Assembly: GCA_039821165.1 (NCBI GenBank)
Contig: JBCBOT010000001.1
Coordinates: forward strand, 30,099 to 94,098
From: Planctomycetota bacterium
Lineage (GTDB): Bacteria > Planctomycetota > Planctomycetia > Pirellulales > Pirellulaceae
Length of the DNA stretch: 64,000 nt
Direction of reading: 5' to 3'
The position numbers and the translations under genes were made by a program. The first letter of the stretch is position 1; each line of letters opens with the position of its first letter. Positions 36,090 to 52,497 of this stretch are shown piece after piece. The notes under the pieces are model-generated. The model had not been told where the DNA came from, searched no databases, and saw only the letters and a program-made list of their open reading frames with translations.

Positions 36090-37112
36090 ATGCCTTCCAA
36101 CCAGCTCTCCGACTACGAGCTGGGTGAAGTCCTGGGTGTCGGCACGGTCGGCACCATCTATCTCGCCCGAGACAAAGAATCGGGTGAACTCGTCGCGCTC
36201 AAAAAATTGCACGCGCGGGTCAGCCAAAACACGTTGATTCGGGCACGGTTTCGTCGTGAGATGACGATCCTTGAGCGGTTACGTCACCCCAACATCGTTA
36301 ACTATCTGGGCGGTGGGCGTGACGACCAATCCCTGTTCTACGTGATGGAAGTTGTTCAGGGAGGAACCGTTGCGGACCTCCTGAATCGAGGCGGACCGCT
36401 CGCCTGGACCGCCGTCGTCGAACTCACTCGCCAGATTTGCAGTGCGCTGCAGTGCGCTCATAACCACGGCATCGTGCACCGGGATCTCAAACCGAGCAAC
36501 CTGTTCCTCACGCGGGACGGCGTCGTCAAGCTCGGCGATTTTGGAATCGCCCGCGACCTGACCGCAGGTGACCTCACAGGTAGCGGTGTCACGGTCGGCA
36601 CTCATGCTTACATGGCACCGGAACAAATCACTGGAGACCGATCGGTCGATGGAAAAGTCGACTTGTACGCGCTCGGTTGCTGCATGTTCGAGATGCTCAC
36701 CGCACGCAAGGTCTTCCTCGGCGATGACTACGCACGGCTCTTTGATCAGCACCTCAAGTCGCCGCCGCCCTCGGTTCGCGACCATGCGGACTGCCCCGAA
36801 GCGATCGACGCGATCATCAAGAGTTTGCTCGCGAAAGCTGCGGAGGATCGGCCATTCAATGCACGGCAAGTCCAGGGCGTGATGCTGGATGTGGCCCGCG
36901 ATTATGTGGGGGGGCAAGAAGATCAGGGCAATCCACCAAGCCCGGTGTTTGAGGCCGGACGTGAAGAGCTGGTCGAACGAATCAACCGCCGCGTCCAAGG
37001 TGCGACGGCCGATGTGAGTGGCAAGAAAGTCCTGCTCGCGGTCTGCGTCATGGTCGCGATCGTCTCAACCTTGGTGCTGATTTCTCAGTTCACCAATCCC
37101 GACGGACCCTGA
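36090..37112 (+). CDS. Ser/Thr protein kinase with C-terminal TM
   Basis: LGVGTVGTIY, VALK, HRDLKPSN, DFG, YMAPE; hydrophobic C-terminus. Confidence 0.92.
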   Translation: MPSNQLSDYELGEVLGVGTVGTIYLARDKESGELVALKKLHARVSQNTLIRARFRREMTILERLRHPNIVNYLGGGRDDQSLFYVMEVVQGGTVADLLNRGGPLAWTAVVELTRQICSALQCAHNHGIVHRDLKPSNLFLTRDGVVKLGDFGIARDLTAGDLTGSGVTVGTHAYMAPEQITGDRSVDGKVDLYALGCCMFEMLTARKVFLGDDYARLFDQHLKSPPPSVRDHADCPEAIDAIIKSLLAKAAEDRPFNARQVQGVMLDVARDYVGGQEDQGNPPSPVFEAGREELVERINRRVQGATADVSGKKVLLAVCVMVAIVSTLVLISQFTNPDGP

Positions 37113-41162: not shown

Positions 41163-42173
41163 CTACTCTTTCGATCGGATGTCGCTGACTACCGAAACCA
41201 ACTGAGTCACCAAGGGTTCGCCTGGTTGAGCTTGGAGAGCCCGCTCGAGTTCTTTTTGGCCACGGGCAAGATGCTCCAGCACCAAGTAGTGATATCCGAG
41301 CAGAAAGTGATGCGTCATGTTTGGAGCGGCCTTCCGCACCGCTTCGAGGGTACGCAAATGGTTCTCGTAGACTTCCTTGGATTGATAGAGGTCGCGGACC
41401 GCCTGCCAGTTCCATGTGTTGCCGAGCAGGAGTGCATCGTAAACATCCGCGGCTGCCGCGTCGTAATCATGCTTTGCGAAGTGGGCAAAGCCTCTGAACT
41501 GCAGGACGTCTGAATTCTCGGGCACCAGTTGAACGGCATTGTCCAGTGTCTCGATCGTTTCGTCGTACTTCTTCGCGCGAAACTGAGTCTTTGCGGTTTC
41601 GATGAGACGAAGGAGTTTTTGCTCGGCGGTATCAGCGACCGGGCCCGCGACCACGGTGTCGGCGGCGGTGACCGGTGTCTGTGCAACGATCGTCGTTGAG
41701 CCTGGACCGTGAATCACCTGAGCGGAGGTTCCGGGTGCACCAACGATGACTGTCGAACCGGGCGACGGAGAAACCGGAACGGGACACTGTTTTGGCTTCG
41801 CGGGTGCGAGCAGCGGTTGTGCAGGCTGAAAGTTGCGATTGACAGATTCGACCGCCGTACCGATGACGTCACGTCCGACGATGGTTCCCGGATTGTTGCT
41901 TCTCCGCATGCCGAATCCAATCGGTGGCGTTGGAAATCCCATCGACCCCATGCGTGGAGGAGTCAGAATCTGCGGTCCGCCCCAGGGAAAACTACCGCTT
42001 CGTTGCGACGCGCCCGAACCGCGTGGAGCGCTGCGAAGGGCCGGTCCGATGATGCCGCCGAGGCCGCTGTTCCCACCGGAAAGCCTTGAACCGAATTGGG
42101 CGTTCACGGAAGTGGAAAAGAAGCAAGTCGCGAGCGACAACAGTGCAGTGTATTGGAGAGTTCGTTTCAACAT
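41163..42173 (-). CDS. Secreted protein: Gly/Pro-rich N-terminus and planctomycete-type TPR C-terminus
   Basis: Signal peptide ending VNA|QF; TPR region ...WNWQAVRDLY...FLLGYHY. Confidence 0.85.
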   Translation of the reverse strand: MLKRTLQYTALLSLATCFFSTSVNAQFGSRLSGGNSGLGGIIGPALRSAPRGSGASQRSGSFPWGGPQILTPPRMGSMGFPTPPIGFGMRRSNNPGTIVGRDVIGTAVESVNRNFQPAQPLLAPAKPKQCPVPVSPSPGSTVIVGAPGTSAQVIHGPGSTTIVAQTPVTAADTVVAGPVADTAEQKLLRLIETAKTQFRAKKYDETIETLDNAVQLVPENSDVLQFRGFAHFAKHDYDAAAADVYDALLLGNTWNWQAVRDLYQSKEVYENHLRTLEAVRKAAPNMTHHFLLGYHYLVLEHLARGQKELERALQAQPGEPLVTQLVSVVSDIRSKE

Positions 42174-42239: not shown

Positions 42240-42437
42240 GCCGTCGGTCTGGCTGGTTTCCTGTTCGTATCTGAACCGGCGGCTAGCGCCGAACCGCTCA
42301 CACTTTGCATGGCCATGAGCGACAAGGCACTAGCTGTCGGTCTGTTTGGTTTCCTGTTCGTATCTAGACCGGCGGCTAGCGCCGAACCGCTCACTCTTTG
42401 CATGGCCATGAGCGACAAGGCACTAGCCGTCGGTCTG
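42240..42437. repeat. 93-bp tandem duplication (2 units plus partial) built from REP family B hairpins
   Basis: Unit starts at 42240, 42333, 42426; each unit has ACCGGCGGCTAGCGCC...GCTCA pairing with TGAGC...GGCACTAG...GTCGGT. Confidence 0.9.
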
Positions 42438-42499
42438 TCCATGCCAGCCCGCGCCGCTCACTCTCCCGAGGTCGGGAGAGTGAAACCCCGGACGCGGCA

Positions 42500-44203
42500 C
42501 TACTTACGGAACGGGTTCTTGAAAGTCGGTTTGGCGGGAGCCGTGACCGCTTGACTGCCGACCGTCGCTCCGGGAGCCGGTTGCACGTTCACGGCAGTTT
42601 GCCCCGACACTCCGATGGCACCGGCTGATTGGCCTTGAGTCGCTAACGCAGCTCCGTTGCCGCCATCGACTCCGGCTGCGAAGGCAGCCCCGCCTGTCGA
42701 GCCGAGTGCCATTGCGTTGCCGCCCTGCCCGGCAATGCCAAGACCTTGACCGCCAGCCTCTCCGATACCGATGCCGGTTCCGCCATCGACGCCAATGCCG
42801 ACTCCTTCGCCGCCATCCAGGCCAACCCCGATACCGGTTCCGCCGTTCGCTCCGATACCGGTGCCAACGCCACCGTTGACGCCGAGTCCTTTGCCGACGC
42901 CGCCATCGATGCCGATGCCAGTCCCCTGACCACCGTTGATGCCGATGCCTTTTCCGTAGCCGCCGTTGATTCCGACACCGGTTCCGATGCCGCCATTGAT
43001 GCCAACACCTTTGCCGACACCGCCGTTGATTCCAACGCCTTCACCGTATCCACCGTTGACACCGATCCCTTTGCCAACGCCACCGTTGATGCCGAGTCCC
43101 TTGCCGACTGCGCCGTTGACGCCGATTCCTTGACCCATGCCGCCGTTTACGCCGATGCCTTCGCCGTAGCCACCGTTGATGCCGACACCTTTACCGATGC
43201 CGCCGTTCATGCCGACACCACGTCCGACGCCTCCGTTGATTCCGACTCCCTTGCCATAGCCGCCGCGGTAACCTTCGCCGATTCCGACGCCGCCGTTGTG
43301 ACCGATACCGTGTCCGAATCCACCTTGGCTTCCAACGCCGAGTCCGACGCCTCCGTTGTGTCCTTCACCAAAACCAAAACCGCCTTCGGTACCGACGCCG
43401 ATTCCGGTGCCTCCGTTATTGCCCATACCGAGTCCAACGCCACCGGAATCTCCGATGCCAACACCCGTGCCGCCGTTCTTGCCGATTCCGATTCCGACGC
43501 CACCGTTGGATCCCACGCCGACTCCCGTGCCGCCTCCGGTACCGATGCCGATACCCACACTGCCTTTGGTGCTCGCGCCGACACCACCGCCGTTGGACGA
43601 TTGACCGGTTCCGCCGTTGACGCCGACACCAATGCCACCGAGCTTCGAATCCACGCCGACACCGACACCGCCTTGGCCGTCGATTGAAACGTTTGCGGGA
43701 CCCTTACCGAAATTCAGTTGCGGACCGTTATTGCCCATCCCGATTCCGATCCCGTTTTTTGGGCTGCTACCTCCGAGACTGTAGCCAGGTCCCGATGGCC
43801 CGCCGATCACATGACCAGACCCTGCTGGACCGCCGAACGCAGGGGCGGAGCCGCCGATCACATGATTCGAAATCCCCGAGCGTTGCTGCGGCAACAACCC
43901 TTGGATGCCTCCTCCGCTGAATGGCACGTGGGTCCCGGACGAGCTGCCGCCGAAGTTCGGGATGATGCCGCGGGGAAATCCAGTGCCACCGTTAGACGGC
44001 TGCACCGCCGGCATCGCGTTGCCACGAGGCATGAAACCACTGCGGATTCCGTTCCCGCCATTCTGCCCGCCCGAGTTCTTGATGCCTTGTTTGATCAGAT
44101 TGCCGAGGTCGAATTGGGCGTGCGCCGTTGCAATCGGCACAAACGCAAGAACCAGAGCGGCAATGAGCGTTGGCGGTCGGTGAATTCGTTGGAGAGTCTT
44201 CAT
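42500..44203 (-). CDS. Secreted glycine-rich decapeptide-repeat protein (GGxGxGxGxN)
   Basis: Signal peptide ending AHA|QF from MKTLQ (44203); 27 consecutive G-x-x-G-x-G-x-G-x-x units at 43564-42755, then 6 degenerate units. Confidence 0.85.
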   Translation of the reverse strand: MKTLQRIHRPPTLIAALVLAFVPIATAHAQFDLGNLIKQGIKNSGGQNGGNGIRSGFMPRGNAMPAVQPSNGGTGFPRGIIPNFGGSSSGTHVPFSGGGIQGLLPQQRSGISNHVIGGSAPAFGGPAGSGHVIGGPSGPGYSLGGSSPKNGIGIGMGNNGPQLNFGKGPANVSIDGQGGVGVGVDSKLGGIGVGVNGGTGQSSNGGGVGASTKGSVGIGIGTGGGTGVGVGSNGGVGIGIGKNGGTGVGIGDSGGVGLGMGNNGGTGIGVGTEGGFGFGEGHNGGVGLGVGSQGGFGHGIGHNGGVGIGEGYRGGYGKGVGINGGVGRGVGMNGGIGKGVGINGGYGEGIGVNGGMGQGIGVNGAVGKGLGINGGVGKGIGVNGGYGEGVGINGGVGKGVGINGGIGTGVGINGGYGKGIGINGGQGTGIGIDGGVGKGLGVNGGVGTGIGANGGTGIGVGLDGGEGVGIGVDGGTGIGIGEAGGQGLGIAGQGGNAMALGSTGGAAFAAGVDGGNGAALATQGQSAGAIGVSGQTAVNVQPAPGATVGSQAVTAPAKPTFKNPFRK

Positions 44204-44398
44204 GGTTGGCTCCGCTGCTTGCTGGGATCGTGATTTTTTGGAGAGCCGATCGCTCCCCAACAACCCATAGGCAAACGCCGCCGAGCAGGGACAACCTTTT
44301 CCGAGATTTCTTTTCTCCGCTCGAATCCAACTCGTCAGCAATGAACGCTACCCATGTGTCCGTCCGAAAAGGTGCAACGCAGTGCATCTCATCTGAGA

Positions 44399-44585
44399 GG
44401 TAACCCGAAACGTCAGTGAGGGAAAGCGAGTCTCGCACCGTCGCGGAGTCCCTTGCTAACGCGGCGGGTTACCCACGTTGGACATCTCGCCCAAAAAGTG
44501 CAACGCACGGGTAACCCGAAACGTCAGTGAGGGAAGCAGGTCTCGCGCACCGTCATGGAGCGCCTTGCTCACACGGCGGGTGAAC
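44399..44585. repeat. Two REP family A hairpins
   Basis: GTAACCCGAAACGTCAGTGAGGGA...TCCCTTGCTAACGCGGCGGGTTAC (44399-44473) and a degenerate second copy (44510-44585). Confidence 0.85.
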
Positions 44586-44633: not shown

Positions 44634-45254
44634 TTAGGCGAAGCCGCCGGCGGAACGCAATTTCGCCAGTGCACGCACGTGCCGCTTCTTCGCCGCTTCA
44701 TGGCTGATGCCGAGAACGATCGCAACCTCTGGACCCGACAACTGCTCAAAGTGCCAAAGCGCCAGGATTTCCCGATCCGCCTCCGACAACGCATCCAAGG
44801 CCGCACGCAGCTTGTCCTGCGTTTCCCGCTGCGAGACGACTCGCGAAGGCGTCGGCTGACTGGAAGACAACTCCATCGCGATGCAACCGGAGTTTGCCGG
44901 TGGAATCCCCTCCAAGTCACGCTCGCGGCGAACGTCGCGTCGCTTCGCATTGAGATGCCGACGATGCGCTTGCGTCAGACTTTGAAGTAGAAGCTTTCGA
45001 AGCCAGAGAAACACGGGCATTGGTCGTGTTTCCAGAAAACGTTCCAAACCATCGATCGCTTGCACAAATACTTCTTGCACGATGTCACAAGCGTCGATTC
45101 TCCCAGCCAGCGCCGGATGAAGCCGCAACTGAACCGTCCGCTCTAACCGTGCCGAGTACTGTTCAAAGAAATGGGTCAGCGCACCATCATTGTCCTGTTG
45201 GCTGAGGGCCAAGAGCTTGTCTGTCTGGTCGTCATCGATTTGAGGCGAAGTCAT
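44634..45254 (-). CDS. ECF sigma-70 factor, planctomycete kinase-associated type (TIGR02984-like)
   Basis: LRLHPALAGRIDACDIVQE...DREILALWHFEQLS..EVA..LGIS..AAKKRHVRAL. Confidence 0.9.
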   Translation of the reverse strand: MTSPQIDDDQTDKLLALSQQDNDGALTHFFEQYSARLERTVQLRLHPALAGRIDACDIVQEVFVQAIDGLERFLETRPMPVFLWLRKLLLQSLTQAHRRHLNAKRRDVRRERDLEGIPPANSGCIAMELSSSQPTPSRVVSQRETQDKLRAALDALSEADREILALWHFEQLSGPEVAIVLGISHEAAKKRHVRALAKLRSAGGFA

Positions 45255-45274
45255 ATCCACGGAAGCCTCTCCAT

Positions 45275-48200
45275 CTATCGAGATTGGTGCGAGGATCGCT
45301 TCGGAATCCACCAAGCATCGATCAAACGCCCATGACGTTCGTTCCCGGAACGATCGGTGATCCTTGTTTCGGTTTCTGCTTGATCCCGACTGAAATCAAA
45401 CAGCAATTCGCATCCTTCATGATTCGTTAGCTCGGACTCGGGTACAAAACCATCTTGGTAGAGCACCCGACTGGAGACCCGGACGGCTCGAATCAAACCC
45501 TCGCCCTTGGGGAGATAGGCGTTGCGATAGATTGAATCCCCAACAAAGAAGGGAGTCTTGACCGGCGGCGCGAACACTGCGGTCGGGATGCACTTCGCCT
45601 CGTTGGCCAGTACTCCATTGACGAACAAGCGTTCGTTTTCTCCGTCATTGCAGAGTGCCACATGAACCCAATGATCTGCTTGAAGCCGTGGCGATGGCAA
45701 GCGAATCCCACTCCTCGCTTGGACGCGCGATGCGTAGAGATCAGCGTAGCTGCGTGAGCGGAGAGGCCTGAATTGGGTTGCGATGGGTGATTCGTGAGCC
45801 TCGATCGAATGACTCCATCGCTGCACCCACGCCTCGATGGTGAAGCCGGAGAATTCATGAAACGGAAGACTTGGAGCGACAATGCGTGCTTCGCCATGGA
45901 GAAATAGGCAGGGTTCGCCGCAAATCATGCGCTTGGCGTTCAAATAATCTGCAAGCGTTTCGGCCGGCGGTCGTAAGTCCGCCGTGATTCGGCCTCGCAC
46001 CGAGAGATACCAGGGATCTTGCGGCGATTGAGCGATCGCTTTGTCGATGGACTCTTTCGCTCGCTCTTCCGCCCGCAAACGGCGTTTGCGAGTCGACAGT
46101 TGATCGGGATACCGCAAGGTGGACCAGATACTGACATCGTTGTCGAACCGATTCGCAGCGAGCTTTCTTCCATCGGGGCTGAAACGCACGCAGCCATCGA
46201 ATTGATAATCTTTCGGTCGAGGCCCGCGGCTGAGTTTGAGAACTTCCTCGCCGGCGAGATTCCAAACCGTCACGTCATCTCGGTTGGCTCCCGCGATTCG
46301 GTCTCCGTTGGGATGCCAGTGCAATTGTTCCACGTTCGGCGGGATCTTCATTTCGGCGATCGGTTTCCAACCCATCTCGCGATCGGGATCACTGGTCGCG
46401 AAGATACCCGCGTTTCCGTCCGTGGTCGCGAACGCGAATCGCCTTGAGTCCGCCGAAAAGTCCAGAGCGGAGATCCCCATACGGTCAGGCGGAAACATCG
46501 CGTCTGGCTCAAGCTCAAGTTCAATCCATTGGGCGTTGAGTGTGGGCATCTGAACGAGACCGATCGAATGGACAAAACCGCCTTGCGAATTCTGATCAGC
46601 AACCGAACGCGCTCCAACTAAAAGCCGGCTTCCGTCCGAATTGAGGCTGAGCTCATGGCACCCGCGCGAGAATCGTCGACGCTCAATCAACGACCATGCG
46701 CTCTTTGTCTCGTCAAAGCTCCAGCAATAGAGAATCGATTCTGAATCGGATTCGCTTGCCGGACAACACGCGACGAGTACTCTGCCGTCGCCGCTCATCG
46801 AAACACAGTTTGCGATTGAATCAAGCGGTTCCGTCGAGTGGACCCGACTGCCACTTTCGACATCATAGATTGCGATTGTCTGATCTTTCTGGACGACAGC
46901 CAATTGATTCCCGGCTTCGTCAAAGCACGCCTCTCGCCGGGAGGCGACTTGGGGAATACCAGCGATCCAATGGAGTTTGAGCAGCCTTCCGCTCTCCGCC
47001 TCGTAAACTTCGATTCGTTTTTCCTGGTAAACAGCGATGCCTGAGCCGCCCCATCGAAATGCAATCGCCTCGGTACCAGGGTAGTTCGAGGTTTTAGTAG
47101 GCGTCTCGCATCGCACATACTCCGGTCGCGAATCGGGTCTCCAAATCCGCACCTGCCCGCTCCAATCACCCGACGCAATCCATTCGCCGTCATGACTGAT
47201 CGCCAAGCTCTGAACGCGATCGGGATGTCCATGCAGCACCCGGACCGGACGGTCCTTGGTCACGTCCCAAACACAGATGCTACCGTCGGTGGCGCCGGTC
47301 GTGATCAGGCCTCGCCCTTCGTGAACTGCGCAAACCGGTTGATAGTAGCTTTTTTGATTGATGAGATGATCTTCGGTGCCTCTCAACTGTTTCCGCAGCG
47401 TTCCATCGCCCAAAGACCTCAACGCCAGGTCGCCGCCATCAACGCAGTCGACGATCAGCCCTAAGCCGGGTGAATAGAGTGCTGACGCAGCAACGGTCTC
47501 GATTGGCTCGGCGAGCCTCTCACCGGTTTCGACATCAAGCATCACTCTTCTCGCCAAATCGGGATAATTCTCCGGCGGTGATTCGCTGTAGTAGTACTCG
47601 ATGGCCTCGATCGTATCGCTCTCATTCGAATCGGCGAGTTCGGTCAGCGTGACGAGGTCGGCACTCCAAACCTGTTCACCCGTTTCCGCGTCCCATGCAG
47701 CGGTCCGAGCGTGTTGAATCCTGTTTCGATTCCAAATCGTCCCGAGAACCAAACGATCATCCGCTGAGAAGCGCAGCCGATAAACCCGTTGATCTTTGGG
47801 AAGCTCCAGCTTCGTAACGACCTCCCTTGATTCGAGTTCCCAAATTTGAACGAACCCCTCCCAACCGGTTTCAAAGTGATTGGTTGCAATCGCTTCGGAG
47901 ACGGCGGCGAAACGACTGTCATGACTGAAGGCGATGTCATAGGCCGAGTGTTCGACCGGTAACTCGCAAACCATCTTCGCAGTTCGCGTGTCCCAAAACG
48001 TCGCGCGGCCTTTGGGTGAGACCCCCCGCGGCCGGACAAACTCAGGCCTTCCTGTTGCGACGGCGATTAGCGAATCGTCGTGACTAAACGTCAAATCCCA
48101 AATCCACTCTGCCTGCGGCGCCGGAATATCAAAGACCGCGACATGCTGGTGCACCAGCGCTTGCAGGTAACCCCATTCCCAGCCCCGACGATCGGTTTGT

Positions 48201-49957
48201 TTTGAACCTGGGATCAGCTGGTCGAGCAACTCGCCAGCCGATTGAGCATCGGTCTCACTGAGCATCTTGACCCGGTCGATCGCGGCGCGGTAGAGCGCGG
48301 ACTCCGCGATTTCCAATCGCTCTTCGGCGAGTGTCTGATTCTTGCCGGCTGCCTTTTGCGCCGAACGTGCGATCTTTGTCTTGATGTTCGCGTCGACGAG
48401 TGCCTCTTCTGCACGAAGCCAACTCCACGCGACGAGCCCGAAAGAAACCAGGAAGAGTGTTGCGAGCGCCGCGGTCAAACCGGACACCAATGGCCTCCGG
48501 CGTATCCATTTGTGCAAACGTTCCAAATTGGTGATCGCGCGAGCCTTGATGGGTTCTCCCACCAGAAAACGCTGAAGGTCTCGCTCAAGTTCCGATGGGG
48601 AGGCATAGCGTTTTGCGGGCTCCTTCTCGATAGCTTTGAGAACGATCGTTTCCAAGTCTTTGGGAACGTTCGAGTTGATCTTTCGTGGAGGAACCGGGTC
48701 TCGCTCCGCGATCGCGCGGATCAGTTGGCTGCGATGCAGTTCTTTGAATGCCGGTTGCAGCGCGAGCAATTCATAGAGCGTCAGACCCAAACTGTAGACA
48801 TCGCTCCGAGACTCGGGCTGCCCCACGCATTGCTCCGGTGCCATGTAGCGGAGCGTCCCGATCATTTCGCCATCGCGTGTCAAATCATCTTCTTCCGTCG
48901 ATTTGGCGAGGCCGAAATCCATGACCCAAACGATGCCTGCCTGATCGAGCATCAAGTTAGCCGGCTTGATGTCTCGGTGCAGTGTGCCCTGGGCGTGTGC
49001 GTACGCTAAAGCATTGGCCACCTGCATGCCGATCTTCGCGACACTTTCCCAATACTTGCCGATATGGCTCGCGCTCCCTGATGACGTTGGTAATGCCGTC
49101 ACACCAGGAAGACTCACGTCAGCTGAGAGCGCGGTGGTTTTTGAAGGAAAGGAAACCGGTTCCAACGTTTCATGTGCTGCATCGATTGATGCCTCTTCCG
49201 CAAAGGCCTGCTCATCCGACACCGCCCCGCTCCCAAAAAGAGACCGAGCCACCTCGGAGGCTTCCGAGTGGACCTTCGGTTCGGCAGAGCCTGCGTTTAA
49301 TCGGGTGGTGGCCGTGGGCGAAGACTGCCACAGCTTCCTCAATTCGCGGATGACCTCGTCGAGCGAAGCTCCTCGAATGAACTGCATCGCGTAGAACAAC
49401 CGACCGTCTTCTTCACCGACCGCGAAGACCGGGACGATGTTGGTGTGGTGCAACATCGCCGCCGCGCGGGACTCTCGTCGGAAGCGTTCGCTATTACGCG
49501 GACTCATTTGGACCGTGGCGGGACACACTTTGAGCGCGACGTGTCGACCCAATGATTCTTGGAGCGCCTCGTAAACGATTCCCATCCCGCCACGACCGAT
49601 CACGCGACGAATCTTGAAGTCGCCGAGTCGGTCGAGTTGCGAGTCCTGGGATCTCGCCTCATCCGTTCCGCTGGGTGCGTTGTCTTCCATGAGCAACATC
49701 ATGGGAAAGACTTCATCGATTCGATCGGCGAGGTCTGGATAGTCTCGCTTGTAATGATCGATGTCGGGGTTCGCGCCCGCGCGGTAACGCTCCAGGTACT
49801 CGTTGGCCAAGTCAATGATCAGATCCGACGCATCGTCGTTTGCTTCCGATGAGAGTGCGGGTTTGGACTCCTGCTCAGAGCCAAACTTCGCAGCATCAAT
49901 GCGAAGCGTGTTTGAGGGGCAGGAACTCCCGCCAGGCACTTCGGAATCGGCGCTCAT
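45275..49957 (-). CDS. Ser/Thr kinase with TM/coiled coil, WD40 repeats and C-terminal LamG/ConA-like domain
   Basis: IGRGGMG, HRDIKPAN, DFG, YMAPE; GH...W-D/x repeats (LHGHPDRVQSLAISHDGEWIASGDWSGQVRIW); FTIEAWV...WVHVALC...LFVNG. Confidence 0.92.
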   Translation of the reverse strand: MSADSEVPGGSSCPSNTLRIDAAKFGSEQESKPALSSEANDDASDLIIDLANEYLERYRAGANPDIDHYKRDYPDLADRIDEVFPMMLLMEDNAPSGTDEARSQDSQLDRLGDFKIRRVIGRGGMGIVYEALQESLGRHVALKVCPATVQMSPRNSERFRRESRAAAMLHHTNIVPVFAVGEEDGRLFYAMQFIRGASLDEVIRELRKLWQSSPTATTRLNAGSAEPKVHSEASEVARSLFGSGAVSDEQAFAEEASIDAAHETLEPVSFPSKTTALSADVSLPGVTALPTSSGSASHIGKYWESVAKIGMQVANALAYAHAQGTLHRDIKPANLMLDQAGIVWVMDFGLAKSTEEDDLTRDGEMIGTLRYMAPEQCVGQPESRSDVYSLGLTLYELLALQPAFKELHRSQLIRAIAERDPVPPRKINSNVPKDLETIVLKAIEKEPAKRYASPSELERDLQRFLVGEPIKARAITNLERLHKWIRRRPLVSGLTAALATLFLVSFGLVAWSWLRAEEALVDANIKTKIARSAQKAAGKNQTLAEERLEIAESALYRAAIDRVKMLSETDAQSAGELLDQLIPGSKQTDRRGWEWGYLQALVHQHVAVFDIPAPQAEWIWDLTFSHDDSLIAVATGRPEFVRPRGVSPKGRATFWDTRTAKMVCELPVEHSAYDIAFSHDSRFAAVSEAIATNHFETGWEGFVQIWELESREVVTKLELPKDQRVYRLRFSADDRLVLGTIWNRNRIQHARTAAWDAETGEQVWSADLVTLTELADSNESDTIEAIEYYYSESPPENYPDLARRVMLDVETGERLAEPIETVAASALYSPGLGLIVDCVDGGDLALRSLGDGTLRKQLRGTEDHLINQKSYYQPVCAVHEGRGLITTGATDGSICVWDVTKDRPVRVLHGHPDRVQSLAISHDGEWIASGDWSGQVRIWRPDSRPEYVRCETPTKTSNYPGTEAIAFRWGGSGIAVYQEKRIEVYEAESGRLLKLHWIAGIPQVASRREACFDEAGNQLAVVQKDQTIAIYDVESGSRVHSTEPLDSIANCVSMSGDGRVLVACCPASESDSESILYCWSFDETKSAWSLIERRRFSRGCHELSLNSDGSRLLVGARSVADQNSQGGFVHSIGLVQMPTLNAQWIELELEPDAMFPPDRMGISALDFSADSRRFAFATTDGNAGIFATSDPDREMGWKPIAEMKIPPNVEQLHWHPNGDRIAGANRDDVTVWNLAGEEVLKLSRGPRPKDYQFDGCVRFSPDGRKLAANRFDNDVSIWSTLRYPDQLSTRKRRLRAEERAKESIDKAIAQSPQDPWYLSVRGRITADLRPPAETLADYLNAKRMICGEPCLFLHGEARIVAPSLPFHEFSGFTIEAWVQRWSHSIEAHESPIATQFRPLRSRSYADLYASRVQARSGIRLPSPRLQADHWVHVALCNDGENERLFVNGVLANEAKCIPTAVFAPPVKTPFFVGDSIYRNAYLPKGEGLIRAVRVSSRVLYQDGFVPESELTNHEGCELLFDFSRDQAETETRITDRSGNERHGRLIDAWWIPKRSSHQSR

Positions 49958-50559
49958 TCGGTCACCAACTTGCGAAGTCGGGCGAGCGCTCGAATATGGC
50001 GTGAACCGGCCGCCTTCTCTGAGATCTTCAGAACGTTCGCCGTTTCTTTCTGTGAGAGTTGCTCGAAATGTCTGAGAGAGAGCACCTCGCGATCCATCGG
50101 ATCCATCTGGCCGAGCGCTTGCTCTAGTCGCACGCGGACCTCGGCGCGAACCGCTGCTTGGCTCGCAGTGGTTAATTGCCCGACCAGCTGCGCCGCGAGC
50201 GCGGCCGAAGTCGCCGTGGAAACGAGCGGGGCGTGGATCGAGACTTCGCGTCCGGCATCGCGCGCCTTGGTACCGAGGTGTCTTCGGTGTGCTTGGGAGA
50301 GTTTTTGAAGGGCGAGGAACCGCAGCCAGACGAAGAGTGGAACTTCCTGCGAACCCAGGTATTCATCGGCGCGCTCGCATGCTTCGAGCTGCGTCTCCTG
50401 AATCACGTCCGACGCATCCACGCGACCGCGCACCCGGGGGTCCAAACGGATCTCGACGAGACGACGCAAGCGGTCCCGGTGTTCCTGCAACGAATCTTGA
50501 AAGCTCGATCGATCCAAGGTGCTCTGCTGGAGAGTCGCTGAGTTTTGGTAGCTAGCCAC
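49954..50559 (-). CDS. ECF sigma-70 factor, planctomycete kinase-associated type (TIGR02984-like)
   Basis: GTG start with GAGGAGG; RLDPRVRGRVDASDVIQET...DREVLSLRHFEQLS; ATGA overlap with the kinase start. Confidence 0.92.
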   Translation of the reverse strand: MASYQNSATLQQSTLDRSSFQDSLQEHRDRLRRLVEIRLDPRVRGRVDASDVIQETQLEACERADEYLGSQEVPLFVWLRFLALQKLSQAHRRHLGTKARDAGREVSIHAPLVSTATSAALAAQLVGQLTTASQAAVRAEVRVRLEQALGQMDPMDREVLSLRHFEQLSQKETANVLKISEKAAGSRHIRALARLRKLVTE

Positions 50560-50631: not shown

Positions 50632-52341
50632 TCAACGATCGATGCGCGTCTCCGGCGATGAATTGCCGCCACGCTGTCGGTTGCGAGGCCCTCCGGGCGG
50701 TCGCGGACGATCGTCGCCGAAACGGTTGTTACCCTGCCCACCTGGAAGACCGCCGGGGCGGCCCCGAGGTCCACTTTCATCCTCGTTATCAAATCGTCGA
50801 TCACGATCACGACCGCCGGGTGGCTCCGGCGGAGGGGGCATGGCGGCCAATTCCTCCGTGCTGAGAAATCCATCTTCGTTTGAGTCGGCTTCCATCATCC
50901 GTGCACGCTCCAATTCAGGAATCTCCGACTCGCTCAGCTTGCCATCGTCGTTCGTATCGAACTGCCGTAAGAGTCGATTCACCGTTGGCTTGAAGAACCC
51001 GCCGCGATTGAGGTCTTGCGACGAATCCATTTCGTTCGCTTCACCAACAGACTCAGCATCCGACGCTTCCGCCGTCGTCGCTCTGTCGTCGTTGGTCGTT
51101 TCAGTAACTTGTTCAGAATCCTCGACGGGCGTCTTGCTTGGCTCCGACATGAAGAACAACAGACCGGGACCCAAAATTAATCCAAGGAGCAAACACCCTG
51201 CCGCAATCATCAAGACTGGAGGCGTCTTGCGAGGTCGATGCGCTCCCGGCCCGCGAAACGTTTGAACTTGATCCGTGTCCACCGACGGTAAATTGTCAAA
51301 CGGATTGGCAGCGGGTGTCGCGGGGCTACTCGAAGGCTCCACGGAAACCGGTTGTGTGACAGCCGCCGCGACGACCGGTTTGGTTCCCTTCTTTCGAGTC
51401 GACTTTTCAGCACCGCGAACAAACTTGGACAATGCCGCCGCGAAGTGCTTCATCGAAGCGAAGCGTTGCTCGACGTCTTTGGAGATCGCGCGTTCCACAA
51501 TCTTGCACAACCGTGGATCGACTCCCGGACGAAGGTCTTCGAGTTTGCGTGGCTCTTGCGTCAGAATATGCGTCAACAACGTGAGCGTGCTGGCGGAATC
51601 CTTGAACGGAAGTGAACCGCTGAGTGACTCAAACAACACAACGCCTAGAGCGTACTGATCGGTCGCGGGGCCGATGGAGTCACCGCGGAGTTGCTCCGGC
51701 GGCATGTAGGCCGGCGAACCAATCAGTGTTCCCTCTTGCGTGAGACGCGACTCGTCGTTCGCTTCGCTGGGGCAAGCCAATCCGAAATCCATCACGACCG
51801 GTTCCTTGCGGTGGTCGATCATGATGTTCGCGGGTTTCAAATCGCGATGGAGAATCCCGTTTTGGTGCGCTTCGGCCATCGCCAAGGCGACTTTCTGAAC
51901 GATGTTCGCGACGACCTTTTCGCTTTGCGGATTCTCTTTATCGATGTACTCCGAGAGTGGTCGACCTTTGATGTAGGCCATCGCGATGCAATGGATGCCA
52001 TCAATCTCGGTCACGTCATAGATCGGACAAAGGTTGGGATGGGTGATTTTTGCGGCCGCACGAGCCTCACGATAAAACCGTTCGCGCGCCTTGTCGTTTT
52101 CCTTGAGATCCGCTTTGGGCACCTTGAGCGCGACGTCACGATCGAGTTGCTCGTCGCGGGCCAGGTACACAGACCCCATCCCCCCACGACCGAGAAGCTT
52201 ACTGACTTCATAGCGACCGAGTTTCACCGGTAGCGCGTTTTCCGCCAGAGGTCCCTCGCCCCCCCGCGTATCCGACGCGGAAAAGTCGAGGGTCTCCTTC
52301 AGGTTGGAGTCAGACCGTTCTTTCCGAGTTTCTCTGGCCAT
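50632..52341 (-). CDS. Ser/Thr kinase with TM and two C-terminal EF-hands
   Basis: LGRGGMG, HRDLKPAN, DFG, YMPPE; TM IAAGCLLLGLILGPGLLFF; DTNDDGKLSESE and DSNEDGFLSTEE. Confidence 0.9.
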   Translation of the reverse strand: MARETRKERSDSNLKETLDFSASDTRGGEGPLAENALPVKLGRYEVSKLLGRGGMGSVYLARDEQLDRDVALKVPKADLKENDKARERFYREARAAAKITHPNLCPIYDVTEIDGIHCIAMAYIKGRPLSEYIDKENPQSEKVVANIVQKVALAMAEAHQNGILHRDLKPANIMIDHRKEPVVMDFGLACPSEANDESRLTQEGTLIGSPAYMPPEQLRGDSIGPATDQYALGVVLFESLSGSLPFKDSASTLTLLTHILTQEPRKLEDLRPGVDPRLCKIVERAISKDVEQRFASMKHFAAALSKFVRGAEKSTRKKGTKPVVAAAVTQPVSVEPSSSPATPAANPFDNLPSVDTDQVQTFRGPGAHRPRKTPPVLMIAAGCLLLGLILGPGLLFFMSEPSKTPVEDSEQVTETTNDDRATTAEASDAESVGEANEMDSSQDLNRGGFFKPTVNRLLRQFDTNDDGKLSESEIPELERARMMEADSNEDGFLSTEELAAMPPPPEPPGGRDRDRRFDNEDESGPRGRPGGLPGGQGNNRFGDDRPRPPGGPRNRQRGGNSSPETRIDR

Positions 52342-52497
52342 CTCGTTTGGTTCGTCGGCGTCATTCGTGGAACGCCTGAATCGCAGCCTCGCACCCAGGA
52401 ATTTCCAACACAACTATAGTACAGTCGCGGTCGGATCGAGAGGACTCGATTGACAAAGGGAATTGAGTCTTCGAAATGGAAAAAGTCGACGCAAACG

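What the first reader, a model, noticed from the sequence alone, without database searches (positions are those of the whole stretch)
42500..44203. Secreted protein of 27 perfect-phase GGxGxGxGxN decapeptides (silk/functional-amyloid-like)
Seen: Gly at positions 1, 2, 4, 6 and 8 (position 2 is S/A twice), mostly N/D at 10, with no indel over 270 aa. Early and late units carry V/I/L at position 5; central units carry K/E/R/Q/T there and I/V/M at position 9. Six degenerate units fade into Ala-rich caps and a basic tail (KPTFKNPFRK). Codons vary between units, so phase appears maintained at protein level rather than by recent slippage. It is not RTX (no GGxGxD), collagen (Gxy) or curli. Inference: (Gly-X)n strands with NG/GG turns forming a flat beta-sheet, beta-roll or cross-beta fibre, possibly for holdfast, stalk or matrix.
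Basis: partly seen in the sequence, partly recalled or inferred. Interest (0 to 1): 0.88.

Follow-up and report, generated by a model that had tools for sequence, protein, structure and literature searches.

The report
Exported glycine-repeat beta-rod protein family
A planctomycete gene encodes an exported protein built from 27 perfectly in-phase ten-residue glycine repeats; it belongs to a small unannotated family that always sits beside a secreted TPR protein, and it is predicted, not shown, to fold into a long regular beta-rod unlike any solved structure.

Summary
Window 42500-44203 (- strand) encodes a 567-aa, 37% Gly protein with a Sec-type signal peptide. It has 27 uninterrupted GGxGxGxGx(N/D) decapeptides (residues 214-483), six degenerate Ala-rich units, and a KNPFRK tail.

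It is a real gene under strong purifying selection (dN/dS about 0.05 against an 88%-identical orthologue at dS about 1). The units are old at the DNA level.

I found at least 12 related loci, all from Planctomycetota/Pirellulaceae MAGs or metagenomes. Every Gly position is invariant, and every indel in the repeat region is a whole number of units. Units show a 20-residue (two-unit) super-period. Specific units carry conserved charged or aromatic residues.

Pfam, NCBIfam and PDB sequence searches gave no match. Foldseek (PDB, BFVD) gave no significant match.

AlphaFold2 on the single sequence gives 7-residue strands and 3-residue NGG turns (pLDDT 87.8, pTM 0.82).

A secreted TPR protein is adjacent in all 12 loci with enough flank.

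Best reading: a capped, tethered beta-solenoid-like rod of the cell envelope, handled or anchored by its TPR partner. Amyloid fibre, holdfast and stalk roles remain untested.

The parts
42500..44203 (-). CDS of the glycine-repeat protein (567 aa plus stop)
   Evidence: ORF and translation. dN/dS is 0.04-0.08 against the L001 orthologue. Collinear relatives are seen.
44117..44203 (-). Signal peptide, residues 1-29 (MKTLQRIHRPPTLIAALVLAFVPIATAHA | QFDLG); there is no lipobox Cys
   Evidence: Read from the sequence. The A-x-A|QF(D/N)(L/F)G junction is conserved in the 7 rows of alignment A3 that hold the N-terminus and in L015. No signal-peptide predictor was available.
43730..44116 (-). Variable Gly/Ser/Asn/Pro-rich linker, residues 30-158, with a recurring PAVQP motif
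   Evidence: AF2 pLDDT is below 50. Length and sequence vary between relatives, but PAVQP/AVQP is kept.
43565..43729 (-). Conserved N-terminal cap, residues 159-213 (NGPQLNFGKGPANVSIDGQGGVGVGVDSKLGGIGVGVNGGTGQSSNGGGVGAS...), with out-of-phase proto-units
   Evidence: Alignments A2 and A3. dN/dS is 0.039.
42755..43564 (-). 27 in-phase decapeptides GGxGxGxGx(N/D), residues 214-483, organised as 20-residue double units
   Evidence: The Gly columns are invariant in 8 sequences and indels are whole units. Lag-2 similarity is 0.33 against 0.22 for lag 1. AF2 gives 7-residue strands, 3-residue turns and pLDDT 90-98.
42575..42754 (-). Six degenerate, Ala-rich units, residues 484-543; proposed C-terminal cap
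   Evidence: Strands are still predicted, with pLDDT 83-91.
42500..42574 (-). C-terminal tail with invariant NPF followed by R/Q and K/S (…KPTFKNPFRK) and the stop codon
   Evidence: N563, P564 and F565 are invariant in A3. The same ending is seen in L011, L014 and L015.
41163..42173 (-). Co-oriented downstream partner gene: a secreted 336-aa protein with a signal peptide, a low-complexity Pro-rich linker and a C-terminal TPR domain
   Evidence: Pfam gives weak TPR hits. A profile search against PDB hits consensus and three-repeat TPR domains, E down to 2e-18. It is adjacent to the repeat gene in all 12 loci with enough flank.
42459..42482 (-). Stem-loop 18 nt downstream of the stop codon. It is the core of a longer predicted stem (dG -30.9 kcal/mol for the 50-nt stretch 42450-42499, z = -3.7) and has no U-tract.

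Best explanation
The gene encodes a member of an unannotated family of Sec-exported structural repeat proteins. So far the family is seen only in Pirellulaceae-like Planctomycetota.

After signal-peptide cleavage (inferred), a disordered Gly/Ser/Pro linker tethers a rigid core. The core has a conserved N-cap, 22-28 decapeptides GGxGxGxGx(N/D), and an Ala-rich C-cap.

Each decapeptide is predicted to give one 7-residue strand (x-G-x-G-x-G-x) plus an N-G-G turn. One face of each strand is bare glycine. The other carries V/I/Y and, in the central units, K/R/E/T.

Units are equivalent in pairs, with a 20-residue structural period. This fits a flattened two-sheet beta-solenoid, beta-roll-like but without the RTX calcium site. 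A hairpin meander with alternate strands equivalent would also fit.

Charged residues sit mid-strand on the side-chain face. I therefore infer that the glycine faces pack inward, as in silk or the Rhagium antifreeze protein. The aliphatic and charged stripes would then be exposed for lateral contacts.

The caps would make it a rod of defined length, set by unit number. From the 4.8 A strand spacing of beta-sheets (general knowledge), I estimate about 5-7 nm if two units form one rung.

The co-encoded secreted TPR protein most likely binds one of the conserved terminal peptides, with the C-terminal NPFRK-COOH as prime candidate. It would act as chaperone, anchor or adaptor in the periplasm or envelope.

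Shown: the gene, selection, family, phase conservation, super-period and synteny. Predicted: the beta-architecture. Inferred: glycine-in packing, rod function, TPR-tail binding and envelope location.
For: Reality and constraint:
- dN/dS is 0.039-0.079 at dS 1.0-1.3 over an ungapped 420-aa alignment.
- Units are diverged at the DNA level.

Family:
- Related loci are L001-L005, L008, L009, L011, L012, L014 and L015, plus protein fragments P0001, P0031 and P0092.

Structural constraint:
- All Gly columns are invariant and all repeat-region gaps are multiples of 10 residues.
- Particular units keep conserved R260, E280, E310 and Y312, and H/Y at 282.
- Unit similarity at x positions is 0.22 / 0.33 / 0.27 / 0.29 for lags 1 to 4 in all 8 sequences. 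It is strongest at positions 3 and 5.

Fold:
- AF2 on the repeat domain gives pLDDT 87.8 and pTM 0.82, with strictly periodic E7/turn3. The full-length model agrees.
- There is no significant Foldseek match. The weak top hits are beta-helices and ice-binding solenoids, including Rhagium AFP.

Export:
- Signal peptides are conserved on both proteins.

Partner:
- It is adjacent in 12/12 loci. One protein fragment (P0001) has a partner-like TPR motif fused in front of the cap and repeats.
- The partner profile matches three-repeat TPR domains such as PP5, Hop/STI1, CHIP and SGT. That these bind C-terminal peptides is my own knowledge.

Published analogue:
- AF2-based beta-solenoid models for (Gly-X)n silk repeats, with laterally interacting exposed faces (PMC11217467).
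Against: - The AF2 result is single-sequence. The five models ranged from pLDDT 28.8 to 87.8, and AF2 is known to idealise repeats.
- I could not inspect coordinates. Solenoid versus meander, two versus three strands per rung, and glycine-in versus glycine-out are therefore not established.
- TRF's best period in the central units is 90 nt. Some Tyr/Glu features recur at lag 3, which would suit a three-sided helix.
- Unit-number differences between orthologues are both odd and even.
- There is no expression, localisation or interaction data.
- Net charge is not conserved, from +16 to -11, so no common ligand can be inferred from charge.
- 37-42% Gly is also typical of disordered or elastomeric proteins.
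Confidence: 0.5

Rival explanations
1. Functional amyloid or silk-like fibre subunit. Monomers polymerise end-to-end or laterally into cross-beta fibres of the cell surface (fimbriae, holdfast, stalk or matrix). The TPR protein keeps them soluble until export or nucleates them.
For: - GX strands with one glycine face and one aliphatic face.
- Exposed V/I stripes are implied if the glycine faces pack inward.
- Silk GX repeats are modelled as laterally associating solenoids (PMC11217467).
- A dedicated secreted partner is present, loosely as in the curli and Fap systems.
- The composition of planctomycete surface fibres is not resolved in the papers I retrieved.
Against: - Conserved, non-repetitive N- and C-terminal caps and unit-specific conserved residues are features of discrete beta-solenoids that avoid open-ended growth.
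- No outer-membrane secretion channel or nucleator genes are conserved nearby.
- There is no homology to curli or Fap.
- Nothing has been tested experimentally.
Confidence: 0.2
2. An intrinsically disordered or elastomeric glycine-rich envelope protein (a hydrogel-like filler or spacer). On this reading the AF2 beta-rod is an over-confident idealisation of a repeat.
For: - Gly content is 37-42%.
- Two of the five AF2 models were poor, at pLDDT 52.2 and 28.8.
- There is no Foldseek neighbour.
- The published silk solenoid models had pLDDT of only about 50.
Against: - Disordered repeats do not normally keep 108 invariant Gly positions, whole-unit indels only, a 20-residue super-period, unit-specific conserved charges, and dN/dS of 0.05 at the x positions.
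- About 20 Asn-Gly dipeptides would be deamidation hot spots if unstructured. This point rests on general knowledge and inference.
Confidence: 0.12
3. A surface-recognition beta-solenoid, such as an ice-binding or antifreeze, mineral-binding or polysaccharide-binding protein, using a flat, regularly spaced face.
For: - The weak Foldseek neighbours include DUF3494 ice-binding proteins and Rhagium AFP.
- Thr recurs at position 3 of alternate early units.
- The geometry is flat and periodic.
Against: - All Foldseek E-values are 0.08 or higher and TM-scores are 0.11 or lower when normalised by the query.
- There is no T-x-T array.
- Surface residues and net charge are not conserved across the family.
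- Nothing in the data I have points to a cold habitat.
Confidence: 0.05
4. A divergent RTX-type calcium-binding beta-roll exported by type I secretion.
For: It has GG-initiated glycine-rich repeats with a two-unit rung, superficially like the 2 x 9-residue RTX rung.
Against: - The period is 10, not 9.
- Position 6 is invariant Gly, not Asp.
- There is no PF00353 hit for any of 8 members.
- It has an N-terminal Sec signal peptide.
- No ABC/MFP secretion genes are nearby.
Confidence: 0.03

Closest known systems
RTX / haemolysin-type calcium-binding beta-roll (nonapeptide GGxGxDxUx, Pfam PF00353)
   Same: Tandem GG-initiated glycine-rich repeats. Two consecutive units form one structural period. 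It is an elongated all-beta repeat domain of exported bacterial proteins.
   Different: The unit is 10 residues, not 9. The Ca-ligand Asp is replaced by invariant Gly. Strands are longer, at 7 residues by AF2. It uses a Sec signal instead of a C-terminal T1SS signal, and there is no Pfam hit.
Silk fibroin (GAGAGX)n crystalline repeats and their AF2-based beta-solenoid model (PMC11217467)
   Same: Gly at every second residue gives a strand with a glycine face and a small or aliphatic face. AF2 builds solenoids from such repeats, and lateral association through the exposed face is proposed.
   Different: The silk protein is eukaryotic, has a hexapeptide period, no regular N-G-G turns and no caps, and its AF2 confidence is low (pLDDT about 50, against 88-97 here). 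The two are not homologous.
Rhagium antifreeze protein (compressed two-sheet beta-solenoid with a core of small residues)
   Same: It is the nearest structural precedent I know for two beta-sheets packed without a bulky hydrophobic core. It appears among the weak Foldseek hits (6xnr; 149 columns, E about 5).
   Different: The structural match is not significant. There is no sequence similarity, the repeat length differs, and the Thr-rich ice-binding face is absent here.
Left-handed beta-helix hexapeptide-repeat proteins (GlmU, gamma-carbonic anhydrase, serine acetyltransferase)
   Same: They are the top, non-significant Foldseek neighbours and are regular parallel beta-helices built from short repeats.
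   Different: E is 0.08 or higher and TM is 0.12 or lower. Their architecture is three-sided with 18 residues per turn. They are cytoplasmic enzymes, and there is no PF00132 hit.
Three-repeat TPR domains of PP5, Hop/STI1, CHIP, SGT and TOM70 (for the partner protein); their binding of C-terminal peptides is my own knowledge
   Same: The partner's C-terminal domain matches these and consensus TPRs by profile. Its neighbour carries an invariant C-terminal peptide.
   Different: Those proteins are eukaryotic cytosolic co-chaperones that bind EEVD-COOH, whereas the partner here is a secreted bacterial protein. Binding is entirely inferred, and the carboxylate-clamp residues were not examined.

Membership tests
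RTX / HemolysinCabind (PF00353) | Nonapeptide period with consensus GGxGxDxUx | tested here: not met
   The period is exactly 10 over 270 aa. Position 6 is Gly in 27/27 units and in all relatives.
RTX / HemolysinCabind (PF00353) | Match to the Pfam model | tested here: not met
   No Pfam hit at E <= 10 for the window protein, or at E <= 1 for 8 family members.
RTX / HemolysinCabind (PF00353) | No N-terminal signal peptide; C-terminal T1SS signal with an adjacent ABC/MFP exporter | tested here: not met
   A conserved N-terminal Sec-type signal peptide is present, and there are no exporter genes in the neighbourhoods.
Curli (CsgA, PF07012) / Fap functional amyloids | Curlin or Fap repeat motifs and a csgEFG/fapF-type export operon | tested here: not met
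   No Pfam or NCBIfam hit. The only conserved neighbour is a TPR protein.
Curli / Fap functional amyloids | Forms SDS-resistant, ThT/Congo-red-positive cross-beta fibres | not testable with these tools
   This requires recombinant protein or native fibres.
Collagen-like (Gly-X-Y)n | Gly at every third residue | tested here: not met
   Gly is at positions 1, 2, 4, 6 and 8 of a 10-residue unit.
Glycine-rich polyproline-II helix bundles (snow-flea AFP type) | Three-residue periodicity of Gly so that every third residue faces the bundle core | tested here: not met
   Periodicity is two within strands. AF2/DSSP assigns beta-strands. The family definition rests on general knowledge and on the abstract of bioRxiv 10.1101/2023.11.25.568672.
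Pentapeptide repeat (PF00805) and hexapeptide LbH (PF00132) | A(D/N)LXX or [LIV]GXXXX repeats recognised by the Pfam models | tested here: not met
   No Pfam hits. Foldseek hits to LbH proteins are not significant.
Silk fibroin-like GX repeat proteins | Homology to fibroin heavy chain, or a GAGAGX hexapeptide period | tested here: not met
   The period is a decapeptide with NGG turns. An exhaustive HMMER search found only low-complexity look-alikes outside the planctomycete family.
New family proposed here (Pirellulaceae GGxGxGxGxN repeat protein) | Signal peptide ending A-x-A|QF(D/N)(L/F)G; PAVQP linker; conserved cap; 22 or more in-phase decapeptides; Ala-rich C-cap; C-terminal NPF(R/Q)(K/S); adjacent secreted TPR gene | tested here: met
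   All of these features are present in the window protein. They are shared with L002-L005, L008, L009 and L015, and with L001, L011, L012 and L014 as far as those contigs reach.
TPR (partner protein) | Match to TPR profiles or structures | tested here: met
   Pfam TPR_14 is above its cut-off; TPR_16, TPR_19 and TPR_2 fall just below theirs. A profile search against PDB gives consensus TPR at E 2e-18 and PP5 at 2e-9.

The most novel reading that the evidence does not exclude
This is a previously unrecognised bacterial 'silk-like' fold. It would be a capped two-sheet beta-solenoid whose interior is lined only by glycine, with 20 residues per rung and N-G-G arcs. It would have its own secreted TPR chaperone or anchor. 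In most relatives it would also have an ECF-sigma-type promoter. It would form a length-tunable rod or laterally assembling fibre of the planctomycete envelope, and so be a candidate for the still-unidentified surface fibre or periplasmic scaffold material of Pirellulales.
Probability: 0.25. Interest if true: 0.8.

Novelty: new variant of a known kind. Interest (0 to 1): 0.62.

Why it matters
Beta-solenoid and glycine-rich structural proteins are well known. This family, however, has no detectable relative in Pfam, NCBIfam, the PDB (by sequence or fold) or BFVD.

Its architecture is unusual. It has Gly at every second residue, an exact 10/20-residue register kept across proteins down to 50% identical to the window protein, defined caps, and an obligate TPR partner.

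If the predicted fold is real, it would be a new, very simple and highly designable repeat scaffold. It would also be a rare bacterial counterpart of silk-type GX beta-structure.

Biologically, it gives a concrete, testable candidate for an envelope or surface structural element in Pirellulaceae, whose envelope and fibre components are poorly defined.

There is also a practical lesson. The exact sequences of four such proteins were not found in the large protein collection I queried, so families of this kind are easy to miss.

Tried and rejected
- Pfam, NCBIfam and PDB sequence searches with the single protein and with the family profile gave nothing beyond one chance-level hit each (NF033849 at E 9.5, 1hux at E 0.49).
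- The word-indexed protein search with the full protein returned one true relative (P0001). With a cap-region profile it returned nothing, because the 8000-candidate limit filled with low-complexity sequences.
- The exact sequences of four family proteins were not found in that collection.
- The exhaustive HMMER search gave 241 hits, but nearly all were unrelated. They were (GVGx)n out-of-frame-looking ORFs, eukaryotic repeat proteins and other decapeptide families such as NGIVGSGxxx. Only P0001, P0031, P0086 and P0092 are family members.
- Foldseek with the full-length model and with the repeat-domain model against PDB and BFVD gave no significant match.
- I tested for a conserved link to the adjacent ECF sigma and Ser/Thr kinase genes. 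Kinases or sigmas are near several family loci, but they are not orthologous between loci, so I do not claim linkage.
- I considered a conserved cationic surface. This is rejected, because family net charge ranges from +16 to -11.
- Rfam gave no hit on the flanking repeats.
- A sigma-70 scan found no promoter.
- The ECF-like motif found in relatives is absent from the whole window.
- An exact look-up of the partner protein, done to identify the source record, found nothing on record.
- Literature searches for the repeat strings and for glycine-rich planctomycete fibre proteins found nothing.
Full report
**1. What is there**

The finding lies on the minus strand. The ORF listed mechanically runs 44341-42500. 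The biologically sensible start is the ATG at 44203, with GGAG 9 nt upstream, giving a 567-aa protein ending ...KPTFKNPFRK*. Gly is 37% of residues, and there is no Cys or Trp.

Printed in phase, residues 214-483 are 27 consecutive decapeptides with no insertion or deletion.
- Gly is 27/27 at positions 1, 4, 6 and 8, and 25/27 at position 2.
- Position 10 is N or D in 21/27 units.
- Position 7 is I/V/L/M in 25/27 units.
- Position 5 switches from aliphatic (early and late units) to K/R/E/Q/T (central units).

Six further units degrade into Ala-rich sequence. With 37% Gly, 108 invariant Gly positions are about 1e-47 by chance (my arithmetic).

**2. It is a real, constrained gene, not slippage debris**

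Unit-to-unit nucleotide identity is only 62%. Codon identity at identical residues (0.44) is close to what Gly codon usage alone predicts (0.36). TRF reports only 61-77% matching arrays of period 30, 60 and 90 nt.

Against the 88%-identical orthologue in locus L001, the alignment is ungapped over 420 residues. The other long ORFs across the repeat are frame shadows.

**3. The family**

Pfam, NCBIfam and PDB sequence searches find nothing for the protein or for a family profile.

DNA-level scans and neighbour look-ups recovered relatives in:
- Planctomycetota/Pirellulaceae MAGs L001-L004;
- assemblies L005 (identical copies L006 and L007), L008, L009, L014 and L015;
- metagenome contigs L011 and L012, and a distant variant L013 with GGTGxGxGNK units.

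The protein fragments P0001, P0031, P0086 and P0092 also belong. The other roughly 240 HMMER hits are unrelated low-complexity or other repeat proteins. The exact sequences of four family proteins were not found in the large protein collection. Their rarity in protein searches is therefore partly an artefact, and the true range is a lower bound.

An alignment of eight members (A3) shows the shared architecture:
- a signal peptide ending A-x-A|QF(D/N)(L/F)G;
- a variable Gly/Ser/Asn/Pro linker with PAVQP motifs;
- a conserved cap (…NGPQLN.G.G.ANV..D..GGVGVGVD…GVNGG.GQSSNG.GVGAS…);
- 22-28 in-phase units;
- an Ala-rich C-terminal block;
- an invariant NPF three to five residues from the C-terminus.

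Every Gly column of the repeat is invariant. Every gap in the repeat region is a multiple of 10 residues. The first ten or so units are one-to-one orthologous, with unit-specific conserved residues: R/M260, E280, H/Y282, H298, E310 and Y312. The central GGxG(K/E/T)G(V/I)G(I/V)N units vary in number.

**4. Structural signal**

Similarity between units at the x positions is higher at lag 2 (0.33) and lag 4 (0.29) than at lag 1 (0.22), lag 3 (0.27) or lag 5 (0.23). This holds in all eight proteins. It is strongest at positions 3 and 5 (0.14 and 0.07 at lag 1, against 0.33 and 0.28 at lag 2). The structural period is therefore most likely two units, or 20 residues.

AlphaFold2 without an alignment gives strictly periodic 7-residue strands separated by 3-residue N-G-G turns. 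For the full protein, pLDDT exceeds 90 over residues about 230-330, and the N-terminal 177 residues are disordered. For the repeat domain alone, mean pLDDT is 87.8 and pTM 0.82, although the five models ranged from 28.8 to 87.8.

Foldseek finds no significant neighbour in the PDB or BFVD. The weak top hits are left-handed beta-helices, DUF3494 ice-binding solenoids and the Rhagium antifreeze protein. Coordinates are not exposed, so I could not verify the topology.

My inference of glycine-in packing rests on one argument. Positions 3, 5, 7 and 9 share one face of a strand, and position 5, which is mid-strand, is K/R/E in the central units. That face is therefore unlikely to be buried.

The 90-nt TRF period and some lag-3 recurrences (E280/E310, Y282/Y312, Y316/Y346) leave a three-sided helix possible. 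A hairpin meander would also give a two-unit period.

**5. Context**

Immediately downstream on the same strand lies window 41163-42173. It encodes a 336-aa protein with its own signal peptide, a low-complexity Pro-rich linker and a C-terminal TPR domain. A profile of 14 such partners hits consensus TPRs (E 2e-18) and the three-repeat domains of PP5, Hop/STI1, CHIP, SGT and TOM70. From my own knowledge, those domains bind C-terminal peptides.

A partner gene is adjacent in all 12 family loci with enough flank. It is downstream in most, upstream in L004 and L012, and on both sides in L003. P0001 has a partner-like first TPR motif fused in front of the cap and repeats. The distant L013 variant has no partner within the 4 kb held.

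The partner-plus-invariant-tail arrangement suggests TPR binding of the NPFRK-COOH peptide. This is inference only.

Upstream in the window are an ECF sigma (44634-45314), a 1560-aa Ser/Thr kinase with WD40 and LamG domains (45275-49957), and another sigma (49954-50559). Kinases or sigmas also lie near several other family loci, but they are not orthologous between loci, so I do not claim linkage.

**6. A regulatory side-finding**

In L003, L004, L009, L010, L012 and L013, the repeat gene, the partner gene or both are preceded by TGTAAC(A/G)-N15-16-CGTA(A/G)G. L005 and L008 carry the motif with A instead of C in the -10 element. The exact pattern has a chance expectation of about 0.4 per 64 kb.

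The motif is essentially the GTAAC(g,a)-N14-15-(c,t)CG(t,a) target of the ECF16-type sigma EcfF (PMC3420878). The window has no such site anywhere; the best PWM score is 13, against 17-20 for the instances.

Instead, its upstream spacer holds a tandem duplication of about 110 nt. Its downstream spacer holds a strong stem-loop and a 93-bp x 2.2 tandem repeat that relatives lack.

**7. Interpretation**

The data establish a new, narrowly distributed family of exported repeat proteins. They are under strong constraint to keep an exact 10/20-residue register, with caps and terminal peptide motifs, and they are genetically coupled to a secreted TPR protein.

The most economical mechanism is a tethered, capped beta-solenoid-like rod of the envelope, whose length is set by unit number and which is handled or anchored by the TPR partner (confidence about 0.5). 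Open-ended amyloid or silk-like fibre formation (0.2), disorder or elastomer (0.12), surface or ice binding (0.05) and RTX-like calcium beta-roll (0.03) are the rivals. The last fails its defining features.

The nearest published analogue for how it may work is the AF2-based solenoid model of silk GX repeats, with lateral association through the exposed face (PMC11217467). Holdfast, stalk or matrix roles remain speculation.

**8. Verdict**

Novelty: a new family and a new variant of the glycine-rich beta-repeat kind. Interest is moderately high, because the register conservation, the absence of any structural neighbour and the obligate TPR partner make it a clean target for structural and cell-biological work.

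Noticed in passing
window 42240-42439 (intergenic, between the repeat gene and the TPR gene): There is a 93-bp tandem repeat, 2.2 copies at 92% identity. It occurs nowhere else in the window and is absent from orthologous loci, whose spacer is only 35-68 nt (L001, L002). It reads as a window-specific insertion of unknown function.
   Followed up: partly
window 42450-42499 (- strand), core stem 42459-42482: A very stable stem-loop lies 18 nt downstream of the stop codon (dG -30.9 kcal/mol, z = -3.7) and has no U-tract. It could be a transcript-stabilising or terminator-like element between the two genes.
   Followed up: partly
window 44340-44575 (- strand, upstream spacer of the repeat gene): There is a tandem duplication of an element of about 110 nt (about 80% identity). 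It contains an exact 24-mer, CCCTCACTGACGTTTCGGGTTACC, at 44399-44422 and 44510-44533. There is no Rfam match and no sigma-70 or ECF-like promoter consensus.
   Followed up: partly
L003 8328-8352 and 9511-9535; L004 8087-8111 and 9436-9459; L009 3923-3947; L010 5867-5890; L012 889-913 and 2142-2165; L013 140-163; relaxed in L005 3891 and L008 193: A conserved ECF-type promoter-like motif, TGTAAC(A/G)-N15-16-CGTA(A/G)G, lies upstream of repeat genes and TPR-partner genes in relatives. It closely matches the published EcfF/ECF16 motif (PMC3420878). It is absent from the whole window.
   Followed up: yes
window 44634-50559 (- strand): The gene order is sigma (49954-50559), then a 1560-aa Ser/Thr kinase with WD40 and LamG domains (45275-49957), then an ECF sigma of the planctomycete PF07638 type (44634-45314, overlapping the kinase end by 40 nt). 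This cluster is directly upstream of the repeat gene. The two sigmas are 43% identical. Kinases and sigmas near other family loci are not orthologous.
   Followed up: partly
P0001 (JGI metagenome protein, 317 aa, from a 1424-bp contig): An N-terminal segment resembling the upstream-type TPR partner, including its first TPR motif, is fused directly to the linker, cap and repeats. It is either a natural deletion fusion of the L004-type gene pair or an assembly chimera.
   Followed up: partly
L013 229-1074: This is a distant 282-aa secreted variant with GGTG(I/V)G(V/I)GNK decapeptides. It ends in GKK rather than NPF and has no TPR neighbour in the 4 kb held, but it is preceded by the same ECF-like motif.
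   Followed up: partly
L010 6001-6777: This partner-like TPR protein has no signal peptide and no repeat-protein neighbour, yet it carries the same upstream motif. It sits next to a 1953-aa multidomain protein (polysaccharide deacetylase, LamG, GDSL, HEAT).
   Followed up: no
protein collection look-up (L005, L008, L009 and window proteins): The exact sequences of these four family repeat proteins were not found in the 15-billion-protein collection, although three of them are listed as called genes on contigs returned from the assembly look-up. This explains why protein-level searches nearly missed the family.
   Followed up: yes
P0005, P0042, P0064 (hits of the exhaustive search): These belong to an unrelated family of signal-peptide-bearing proteins with another decapeptide repeat, (N/S)GIVGSG(V/I/A)xx or NSSIGSGVAx, after a folded N-terminal domain. 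It may be another uncharacterised beta-repeat family.
   Followed up: no
window 50632-52413 (- strand): A Ser/Thr kinase with C-terminal EF-hand motifs. The window holds at least three Ser/Thr kinase genes (36090-37112, 45275-49957, 50632-52413), so kinase proximity to the finding carries little weight.
   Followed up: no
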